Program-made: the position numbers
NCBI RefSeq assembly: GCF_057098645.1
Contig: NZ_CM169472.1
Length of the DNA stretch: 64,000 nucleotides
Reading direction: 5' to 3' (one strand)
Shown here: piece by piece, positions 50,765 through 50,839 of the stretch
Numbering within the stretch: position 1 is the first letter of the stretch
Layout: each line of letters starts with the position of its first letter

Positions 50765-50839
50765 TCACTAGTTAAACTGAAACTCCAGACAAACAACGCG
50801 TACCCAGGGTACGCGTTGCCGTTCTAACTTTTTTACTTA

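What the first reader, a model, noticed from the sequence alone, without database searches (positions are those of the whole stretch)
50794..50818. Near-perfect 25-bp palindrome in the pyrG-eno spacer
CAACGCGTACCC-A-GGGTACGCGTTG forms a 12-bp stem with a minimal loop, more perfect than a typical terminator and lacking a strong U-tract on either strand. It may be a protein-binding operator or RNA-processing site affecting the known pyrG-eno co-transcription.
Basis: seen in the sequence. Interest (0 to 1): 0.2.

Follow-up and report, generated by a model that had tools for sequence, protein, structure and literature searches.

The report
Known RNA hairpin between pyrG and eno

Summary
Arms 50794-50805 and 50807-50818 are 100% complementary. 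Two perfect inverted repeats with arms of 12 nt or more occur in the window, against 0.02 expected.

The window is E. coli chromosome. pyrG and eno lie on the minus strand, and the palindrome sits in their 87-nt spacer.

On the mRNA strand it folds as an 11-bp G+C-rich stem with a CUG loop (13 bp with two G·U pairs), followed by UUUGUCUGG.

Comparison of 31 Enterobacterales spacers shows the structure is conserved, not the sequence. 92% of cells are paired, all 10 pairs show compensatory changes, and slid controls give 27-50%. Interruptions in the helices are G·U on the mRNA strand far more often than A·C (75 against 15). This indicates selection on the sense RNA and argues against a DNA operator.

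The hairpin is single-copy and its stem is essentially invariant in E. coli.

Published work already describes a "large hairpin" in this eno leader, with RNase III-dependent 5' ends around it and RNase G decay downstream (Lee 2019, Romero 2014, Clarke 2014).

Term-seq lists no 3' end there, so it is not an efficient terminator in E. coli. Positional counterparts in Vibrio, Aeromonas and Pseudoalteromonas do look like terminators.

Verdict: already known, low interest.

The parts
50794..50818 (-). Core hairpin on the pyrG-eno mRNA: CAACGCGUACC / CUG loop / GGUACGCGUUG (the 25-bp palindrome)
   Evidence: the stem is invariant in the sampled E. coli and E. albertii, and the only change is the loop base
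50792..50820 (-). The same hairpin extended by two G·U pairs (GG...UU), giving 13 bp in the MFE structure
   Evidence: the G·U pairs correspond to alignment columns 24-62 and 25-61 and are kept as GU, AU or GC in relatives
50786..50826 (-). Extended hairpin: a lower 4-5 bp helix (UUAGA/UCUGG) separated from the core by a 2x2 internal loop
   Evidence: MFE; 74.5% of cells paired across the alignment but little covariation, so support is weak
50750..50836 (-). The 87-nt pyrG-eno intercistronic spacer, which is the eno 5' UTR
   Evidence: the 87-nt UTR is used in Lee et al. 2019
50826..50826 (-). Published 5' end at -77 from the eno ATG ('enoP6'), reinterpreted as an RNase III-dependent end; 8 nt 5' of the core stem
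   Evidence: Olvera 2009; Lee 2019; the coordinate conversion is my own
50776..50776 (-). Published 5' end at -27 from the eno ATG ('enoP4-P5'), reinterpreted as an RNase III-dependent end that accumulates in a strain lacking rng; 18 nt 3' of the core stem
   Evidence: Olvera 2009; Lee 2019; the coordinate conversion is my own
50750..50793 (-). Highly conserved eno leader downstream of the hairpin (UUUGUCUGGAGUUUCAGUUUAACUAGUGACUUGAGGAAAACCUA), including the Shine-Dalgarno GAGGA at 50757-50761 and the reported RNase G site that leaves an 18-nt leader (about 50767)
   Evidence: invariant columns of alignment A1; Clarke 2014
50837..52474 (-). pyrG coding sequence (CTP synthase)
49451..50749 (-). 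eno coding sequence (enolase)

Best explanation
The palindrome is the DNA image of an RNA hairpin on the pyrG-eno mRNA (window minus strand). It has 11 Watson-Crick pairs plus two G·U pairs and a CUG loop. It starts 18 nt after the pyrG stop codon and ends 44 nt before the eno start codon. It is the core of the 'large hairpin' of the eno 5' UTR. It acts at the RNA level as an intercistronic processing and stability element. Transcripts that start upstream of or inside pyrG read through it. RNase III-dependent cleavages on either side of it separate the eno message from pyrG sequence. The shortened, 5'-monophosphorylated eno leader is then a substrate for RNase G (and RNase E), which sets eno mRNA life-time and translation. 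Shown here: the structure, its strand, its conservation by covariation and its single-copy status. Taken from the literature: the RNase III, G and E dependence. Inferred: that processing is the selected function.
For: Structure: the hairpin is in the MFE and centroid folds, z = -3.07. Conservation of structure, not sequence: every Enterobacterales spacer folds into a hairpin at the same place with different stem sequences. RNAalifold recovers the stem from a sequence-only MAFFT alignment. 92.4% of cells are paired, 10 of 10 pairs have double changes, 0 of 500 shuffles reach the score, and slid controls give 27-50%. Strand: helix interruptions are G·U 75 times and A·C 15 times, against 60% G·U expected from composition, p = 4e-6. 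The whole-spacer MFE is lower on the sense strand in 59 of 62 species. Population: one copy per genome in 5425 of 5426 E. coli; 3417 are identical over 41 nt and 2002 have one difference, which in the one such genome examined lies outside the stem. Literature: Lee 2019 reports four RNase III-dependent 5' ends in this 87-nt UTR, two described as a canonical 2-nt-overhang pair in the predicted hairpin, with band 3 accumulating in the rng deletion strain. [quoted passage not shown] Clarke 2014 reports an RNase E site in the pyrG-eno intergenic region and an RNase G site that leaves an 18-nt leader. The 5' ends at -77 and -27 bracket the palindrome.
Against: In vitro, RNase III cut the model eno RNA at sites other than those mapped in vivo, and the authors invoked a cis-antisense RNA. 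The hairpin alone may therefore not be the direct substrate. I could not place the published -77 and -27 ends opposite each other with a 2-nt overhang in any helix I folded (my own reasoning on the structure), and the paper's figures are not available to me. The core stem (11-13 bp) is shorter than the roughly two helical turns typical of RNase III substrates (my own knowledge), and the lower extension has weak comparative support. The main text of two genome-wide RNase III papers names no pyrG-eno site, and their site lists were either not held as text or did not contain the terms searched. The -27 end lies at AG|UUU, which resembles an RNase E/G site, so the RNase III dependence could be indirect.
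Confidence: 0.6

Rival explanations
1. Leaky intrinsic terminator or attenuator at the end of pyrG. The G+C-rich hairpin followed by UUUGUCU would stop a fraction of polymerases and so set the pyrG:eno ratio. RNase effects would be secondary.
For: A G+C-rich 11-13 bp stem is followed at once by UUUGUCUG, 5 U in 8. Positional counterparts in other Gammaproteobacteria look like canonical terminators, for example Aeromonas caviae ...GCCGCUUUUUUUGG, Pseudoalteromonas AAAAGCCGUGC...GGCUUUUUUGUUUUU and Vibrio GGGCAG...CUGCCCUUUAAAUUU. At least 5 U in 8 occurs in 72-100% of the non-enteric groups. The UUUGUCUGG tail is nearly invariant in Enterobacteriaceae.
Against: The Term-seq tables of Adams 2021 list no 3' end between K-12 2904326 and 2908331 on the minus strand, and no coordinate beginning 29079 or 29080 in any condition. 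The tool's terminator scan did not call it. The eno promoters mapped inside pyrG (-212, -731, -760, -903) must read through it to express this abundant enzyme. In Providencia, Photorhabdus, Rahnella and Yersinia the hairpin is kept but the tail is not U-rich.
Confidence: 0.2
2. Passive stability hairpin. After endonucleolytic cutting it would cap the 3' end of pyrG mRNA against 3' exonucleases, or form a 5'-terminal stem-loop on eno mRNA that blocks 5'-end-dependent RNase E/G attack, as the ompA 5' hairpin does.
For: The -77 end falls at the first base of the extended stem (U11 pairs with G51). That species would begin with a base-paired 5' end. The shorter species lacking the hairpin is the one that accumulates without RNase G. 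Structure without sequence conservation is what a steric barrier needs.
Against: No stable 3' end is seen at the hairpin in Term-seq, which argues against a pyrG 3' cap. No half-life data bear on this. It overlaps heavily with the best explanation rather than excluding it.
Confidence: 0.12
3. DNA operator: a dimeric transcription factor binds the palindromic duplex and regulates read-through or a promoter in the spacer.
For: There is perfect dyad symmetry. Olvera 2009 proposed promoters in the spacer and a 105-bp fragment drove a cat reporter.
Against: Half-site sequences are replaced wholesale between genera while complementarity is kept. G·U wobble is tolerated but A·C is not, an asymmetry that duplex DNA cannot read. 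No promoter-like site is found in the spacer.
Confidence: 0.03
4. Chance palindrome or a copy of a repeated extragenic palindrome (REP/BIME-type element) with no local function.
For: E. coli intergenic regions hold many palindromic repeats (my own knowledge).
Against: 0.02 such palindromes are expected per window. There is exactly one place per genome in 5425 E. coli genomes. There is covariation across genera.
Confidence: 0.01

Closest known systems
The 'large hairpin' of the E. coli eno 5' UTR and pyrG-eno RNase III sites (Lee et al. 2019, Sci Rep, PMC6872547; Romero et al. 2014, PMC4681348, citing Ow et al. 2003)
   Same: Same locus, same 87-nt UTR and the same predicted stem-loop upstream of the eno Shine-Dalgarno sequence. 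RNase III-dependent ends flank it.
   Different: There is no difference in kind; this is the same object.
rpsO-pnp intercistronic hairpin and adhE 5' UTR hairpin (RNase III sites that prime the downstream mRNA for decay or translation)
   Same: An intercistronic or leader stem-loop is cut on both sides by RNase III. The downstream message is then handled by RNase E/G. Romero 2014 lists these together with pyrG-eno.
   Different: The pyrG-eno core stem is shorter (11-13 bp). In vitro RNase III cleavage did not reproduce the in vivo sites, and a cis-antisense RNA has been invoked.
Rho-independent (intrinsic) terminators
   Same: A G+C-rich stem-loop lies directly downstream of a stop codon with a U-rich tail. 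Counterparts in Aeromonas, Pseudoalteromonas and Vibrio look canonical.
   Different: The U-tract is interrupted (UUUGUCU), no Term-seq 3' end is listed in E. coli, and the downstream gene depends on read-through.
ompA-type 5'-terminal stabilising stem-loops
   Same: A stable hairpin lies near the 5' end of a processed, highly expressed mRNA. It is conserved in structure rather than in sequence.
   Different: No half-life evidence exists for this role at eno. The hairpin is internal to the primary transcript.

Membership tests
RNase III processing stem-loop | Double-stranded helix long enough for RNase III (about 20 bp, or a shorter helix with an internal loop) | tested here: inconclusive
   The core is 11 Watson-Crick pairs plus 2 G·U pairs. 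With the lower UAGA/UCUG helix the total is about 17-19 positions across a 2x2 internal loop. The lower helix is only 74.5% paired with little covariation.
RNase III processing stem-loop | Cleavage products depend on rnc in vivo | not testable with these tools
   Literature only. Four 5' ends were lost in the rnc deletion strain by primer extension, three of them also by S1 mapping (Lee 2019). RNase III site pairs were seen by RNA-seq (Romero 2014).
RNase III processing stem-loop | Staggered cuts on both strands of the helix leaving 2-nt 3' overhangs | tested here: inconclusive
   Lee 2019 claims this for sites 1 and 3. Using the -77 and -27 ends of Olvera 2009 on the structure I could not place them 2 nt staggered across one helix. 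The figure is not available.
RNase III processing stem-loop | Purified RNase III cuts the isolated RNA at the same sites | not testable with these tools
   The literature reports that it does not: in vitro sites differed from in vivo sites (Lee 2019).
Intrinsic (Rho-independent) terminator | G+C-rich stem-loop | tested here: met
   11 bp stem, 8 of them G-C (read from the sequence); the 29-nt hairpin including the two G·U pairs folds at about -19.7 kcal/mol.
Intrinsic (Rho-independent) terminator | Uninterrupted or near-uninterrupted U-tract directly 3' of the stem | tested here: inconclusive
   The tail is UUUGUCUG, 5 U in 8 with three proximal U. The consensus scan did not report it, apparently because its G·U stem extension consumes two U (my inference).
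Intrinsic (Rho-independent) terminator | RNA 3' ends at the U-tract in vivo | not testable with these tools
   A published Term-seq table has no entry with coordinates beginning 29079 or 29080. The neighbouring minus-strand entries are 2904326 and 2908331/2909630 (Adams 2021 supplement). This speaks against the feature.
REP/BIME-type repeated extragenic palindrome | Many copies per genome | tested here: not met
   Exactly one place per genome in 5425 E. coli genomes.
Palindromic DNA operator | Half-site sequence conserved among relatives that keep the regulator | tested here: not met
   Stem sequences differ between genera with compensatory changes at all 10 pairs. G·U outnumbers A·C 75 to 15.
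Any curated Rfam family | Match at or above the gathering score | tested here: not met
   The only overlapping match is nrdJ RNA on the opposite strand, 17.5 bits against a gathering score of 40.3, E = 7.1.

The most novel reading that the evidence does not exclude
The hairpin is an ancient pyrG terminator conserved across Gammaproteobacteria. In Enterobacterales it would have lost most terminating activity and been kept, by selection on structure alone, as an RNase-controlled switch. That switch would uncouple the expression of enolase, a degradosome component, from CTP synthase. It could define a new, widely distributed cis-regulatory RNA family not yet in Rfam.
Probability: 0.3. Interest if true: 0.3.

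Novelty: already known. Interest (0 to 1): 0.15.

Why it matters
Enolase is both a glycolytic enzyme and a component of the RNA degradosome, so how its mRNA is separated from pyrG and turned over has some importance. The hairpin, its RNase III-dependent ends and the RNase G step are already published for E. coli. This analysis adds comparative support. The structure is under selection on the sense RNA across Enterobacterales, and terminator-like counterparts exist in other Gammaproteobacteria. That rules out a DNA operator and makes mutational tests straightforward to design. It does not open a new question.

Tried and rejected
- **Rfam scan** of 49300-52700 at permissive E-value: nothing relevant.
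- **Promoter and terminator consensus scan:** no site in the spacer.
- **Genome-wide RNase III papers:** Altuvia 2018 has no supplement held. Gordon 2017 does not mention the locus in its text or supplements.
- **Transcript-end data sets:** the supplements of Dar & Sorek 2018 and Conway 2014 are not held, and SMRT-Cappable-seq has no pyrG entry.
- **Primary papers:** Ow 2003 and Jourdan & McDowall 2008 are not held.
- **Literature search for 'pyrG.eno':** no result.
- **Published 5' ends:** I tried to fit the -77 and -27 ends to a 2-nt-staggered RNase III cut in the folded structure, including an alternative AGUUAGA/UUUAACU outer helix. They did not fit, and that outer helix is not supported outside Enterobacteriaceae.
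- **Biased strand test:** my first sense-versus-antisense energy comparison was biased, because the hairpins were chosen on the sense fold. I replaced it with symmetric tests.
- **Lower helices:** the extended lower helices have weak covariation and are not claimed.
- **Repeat family:** rejected as single-copy.

Full report
**Observation**

The + strand at 50794-50818 reads CAACGCGTACCCAGGGTACGCGTTG. The repeat finder gives two 12-nt arms, 100% complementary, 1 nt apart.

ORF listing and BLAST show the window is E. coli chromosome. A 301-nt query around the site matches 5425 of 5426 complete E. coli genomes. It lies under pyrG and eno, both on the minus strand. The palindrome sits in their 87-nt spacer (50750-50836).

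In 100 dinucleotide-preserving shuffles of the window, perfect inverted repeats with arms of 12 nt or more and a gap of 0-8 nt occur 0.02 times on average. The window has two.

**Anatomy on the transcribed strand**

The mRNA reads UAA-GUAAAAAAGUUAGAACGG-CAACGCGUACC-CUG-GGUACGCGUUG-UUUGUCUGGAGUUUCAGUUUAACUAGUGACUUGAGGAAAACCUA-AUG.

- The MFE and centroid structures contain the hairpin as 13 pairs: 11 Watson-Crick plus two G·U, with a CUG loop.
- A further 4-bp lower helix (UAGA/UCUG) lies across a 2x2 internal loop.
- The spacer folds at -27.9 kcal/mol, z = -3.07.
- The tail UUUGUCUG has 5 U in 8.
- The consensus terminator scan did not call it, apparently because its G·U extension consumes two U (my inference).
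- Rfam has no family here.

**Comparative evidence**

Eighty loci encoding enolase were fetched from one genome per species. pyrG lies upstream of eno in 76 of them, and directly upstream (spacer under about 235 nt) in 73.

In Enterobacterales the spacer is about 75-95 nt. Each species' own fold puts a hairpin at the same place, but the stem sequences differ between genera:

| Genus | Stem and loop |
|---|---|
| Citrobacter | CAAUGCACCC-AUUC-GGGUGCAUUG |
| Serratia | CAACGCGCGG-CCAAAA-CCGCGCGUUG |
| Yersinia | GGGGCGGCA...UGUCGCCCC |
| Hafnia | GGCGCGGAAC-AUGG-GUUCCGCGCC |
| Rosenbergiella | CAGCCAGUGAA-CCU-UUCACUGGCUG |
| Providencia | GGGAUAGGUC...GGCCUAUCUCCC |

RNAalifold recovers the stem from a sequence-only MAFFT alignment of 31 spacers. 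Explicit pair counting gives the following:

- 92.4% of cells are paired.
- 10 of 10 pairs have changes on both sides.
- 53 cells show double changes, against 15 in shuffles.
- 0 of 500 shuffles reach the covariation score.
- Only 27-50% of cells pair when the 3' partners are slid by 1-3 columns.

The lower helices are much less well supported.

**Which strand, and RNA or DNA**

I searched for helices symmetrically, allowing both G·T and A·C as neutral interruptions. A·C would be G·U on the antisense RNA. The helices contain 75 G·U and 15 A·C interruptions. Base composition predicts 60% G·U, giving p = 4e-6. The species are not independent, so this p-value is indicative only.

The whole-spacer MFE is lower on the sense strand in 59 of 62 species. 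Duplex DNA cannot distinguish G·T from A·C. Selection therefore acts on the sense RNA, which argues strongly against a DNA operator.

**Within E. coli**

- The 41 nt around the hairpin occur exactly once per genome.
- 3417 genomes are identical and 2002 differ at one position. In the one such genome examined (WCHEC035053S1G0), and in K-12 and 50EVAW, the difference is an A/G polymorphism at window 50822, outside the stem.
- One of the six most divergent genomes (E1739) has a 3-nt duplication in the 5' arm.
- E. albertii differs only at the loop base.
- The element is not a REP-type repeat.

**What the literature already says**

- **Lee et al. 2019 (PMC6872547).** They studied exactly this 87-nt eno 5' UTR. 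They mapped four RNase III-dependent 5' ends and described two as a canonical 2-nt-overhang pair in the predicted hairpin. One end accumulated in the rng deletion strain. They proposed that removing the "large hairpin" upstream of the Shine-Dalgarno sequence enhances translation. In vitro, however, RNase III cut elsewhere, and they invoked a cis-antisense RNA.
- **Romero et al. [quoted passage not shown]
- **Clarke et al. 2014.** They cite an RNase E site in the pyrG-eno intergenic region and map an RNase G site that leaves an 18-nt leader.
- **Olvera et al. 2009.** Their 5'-RACE ends at -77 and -27 were first called promoters enoP6 and enoP4-P5. They correspond to window 50826 and 50776 and bracket the palindrome.
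- **Adams et al. 2021.** Their Term-seq tables list no 3' end in the spacer.

**Mechanism**

The best-supported reading is a sense-strand RNA hairpin that forms the core of an intercistronic processing and stability element. Transcripts from upstream of or inside pyrG read through it. RNase III-dependent cuts around it detach the eno message. RNase G or E then acts on the shortened, monophosphorylated leader.

- **Shown here:** structure, strand, covariation, single copy.
- **From the literature:** nuclease dependence.
- **Inferred:** that this is the selected function.

Caveats remain. The core stem is short for RNase III. The in vitro sites disagree with the in vivo sites. I could not place -77 and -27 across one helix with a 2-nt stagger. 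The -27 end sits at AG|UUU, which looks like an RNase E/G site (my own knowledge of the RN|WUU consensus).

**Rivals**

A leaky intrinsic terminator is the main rival.

- **For it:** outside Enterobacterales the positional counterpart is terminator-like, for example Aeromonas caviae GCCGCUUUUUUUGG and Pseudoalteromonas GGCUUUUUUGUUUUU. At least 5 U in 8 occurs in 72-100% of the Vibrio, Aeromonas and Alteromonas groups. The enteric tail UUUGUCUGG is nearly invariant.
- **Against it:** Term-seq shows no 3' end in E. coli. The eno promoters inside pyrG require read-through. Several enteric genera keep the hairpin without a U-rich tail.

A passive stabilising hairpin is compatible with the data and overlaps the main model. 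A DNA operator and a chance or repeat origin are rejected.

**Verdict**

This is a real, functional and well-conserved RNA structure. It is the same hairpin already described in the E. coli eno leader. Novelty: already known. Interest: low (0.15). The comparative covariation and strand analysis is confirmatory, and it suggests an evolutionary link to a pyrG terminator.

Noticed in passing
window 40783-40822: This is the strongest palindrome in the window: a 16-bp perfect inverted repeat with an 8-nt gap (AGAAAGGTAACTTCCC-CCGCGAGA-GGGAAGTTACCTTTCT). It lies between the divergent ygcW (SDR oxidoreductase) and yqcE (MFS transporter) genes and is a candidate operator or regulatory hairpin.
   Followed up: partly
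window 18610-18941 and 44427-44635 (minus strand): There are two type I-E CRISPR arrays, with 6 and 4 copies of the E. coli repeat GTTCCCCGCGCCAGCGGGGATAAACCG at about 61-nt spacing.
   Followed up: no
window 50750-50793 (minus strand): The eno leader downstream of the hairpin is more conserved in sequence than the hairpin itself. UUUAACU.GU...GAGGAA is invariant in all 31 Enterobacterales spacers, including Providencia and Photorhabdus. It may combine RNase E/G sites with a strong translation initiation region.
   Followed up: partly
window 50776 (minus strand): The published -27 5' end ('enoP4-P5' start) falls at AG|UUU. This matches the RNase E/G cleavage consensus RN|WUU as I recall it, so its reported RNase III dependence may be indirect.
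   Followed up: no
window about 52436-52438 (K-12 2909628-2909630), inside the pyrG 5' end: Adams 2021 Term-seq lists strong, Rho-sensitive 3' ends 36 nt into the pyrG ORF, flagged 'uORF'. This points to premature termination at the start of pyrG.
   Followed up: no
window 50822; locus L085 (E. coli E1739): An A/G polymorphism 4 nt 5' of the stem on the mRNA was seen in the genomes examined (K-12, 50EVAW, WCHEC035053S1G0). It is probably the single difference that separates the 3417 identical genomes from the 2002 with one mismatch. A rare strain carries an ACC duplication in the 5' arm that would bulge the hairpin.
   Followed up: partly
loci L038, L041, L055, L058, L059, L066, L067 (Vibrio spacers): Directly after the Vibrio hairpin the spacer carries a conserved UUUAAAUUUGACAUUUAUAU motif that contains a TTGACA hexamer. 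It is unclear whether this is a promoter element or part of a U-rich tail.
   Followed up: no
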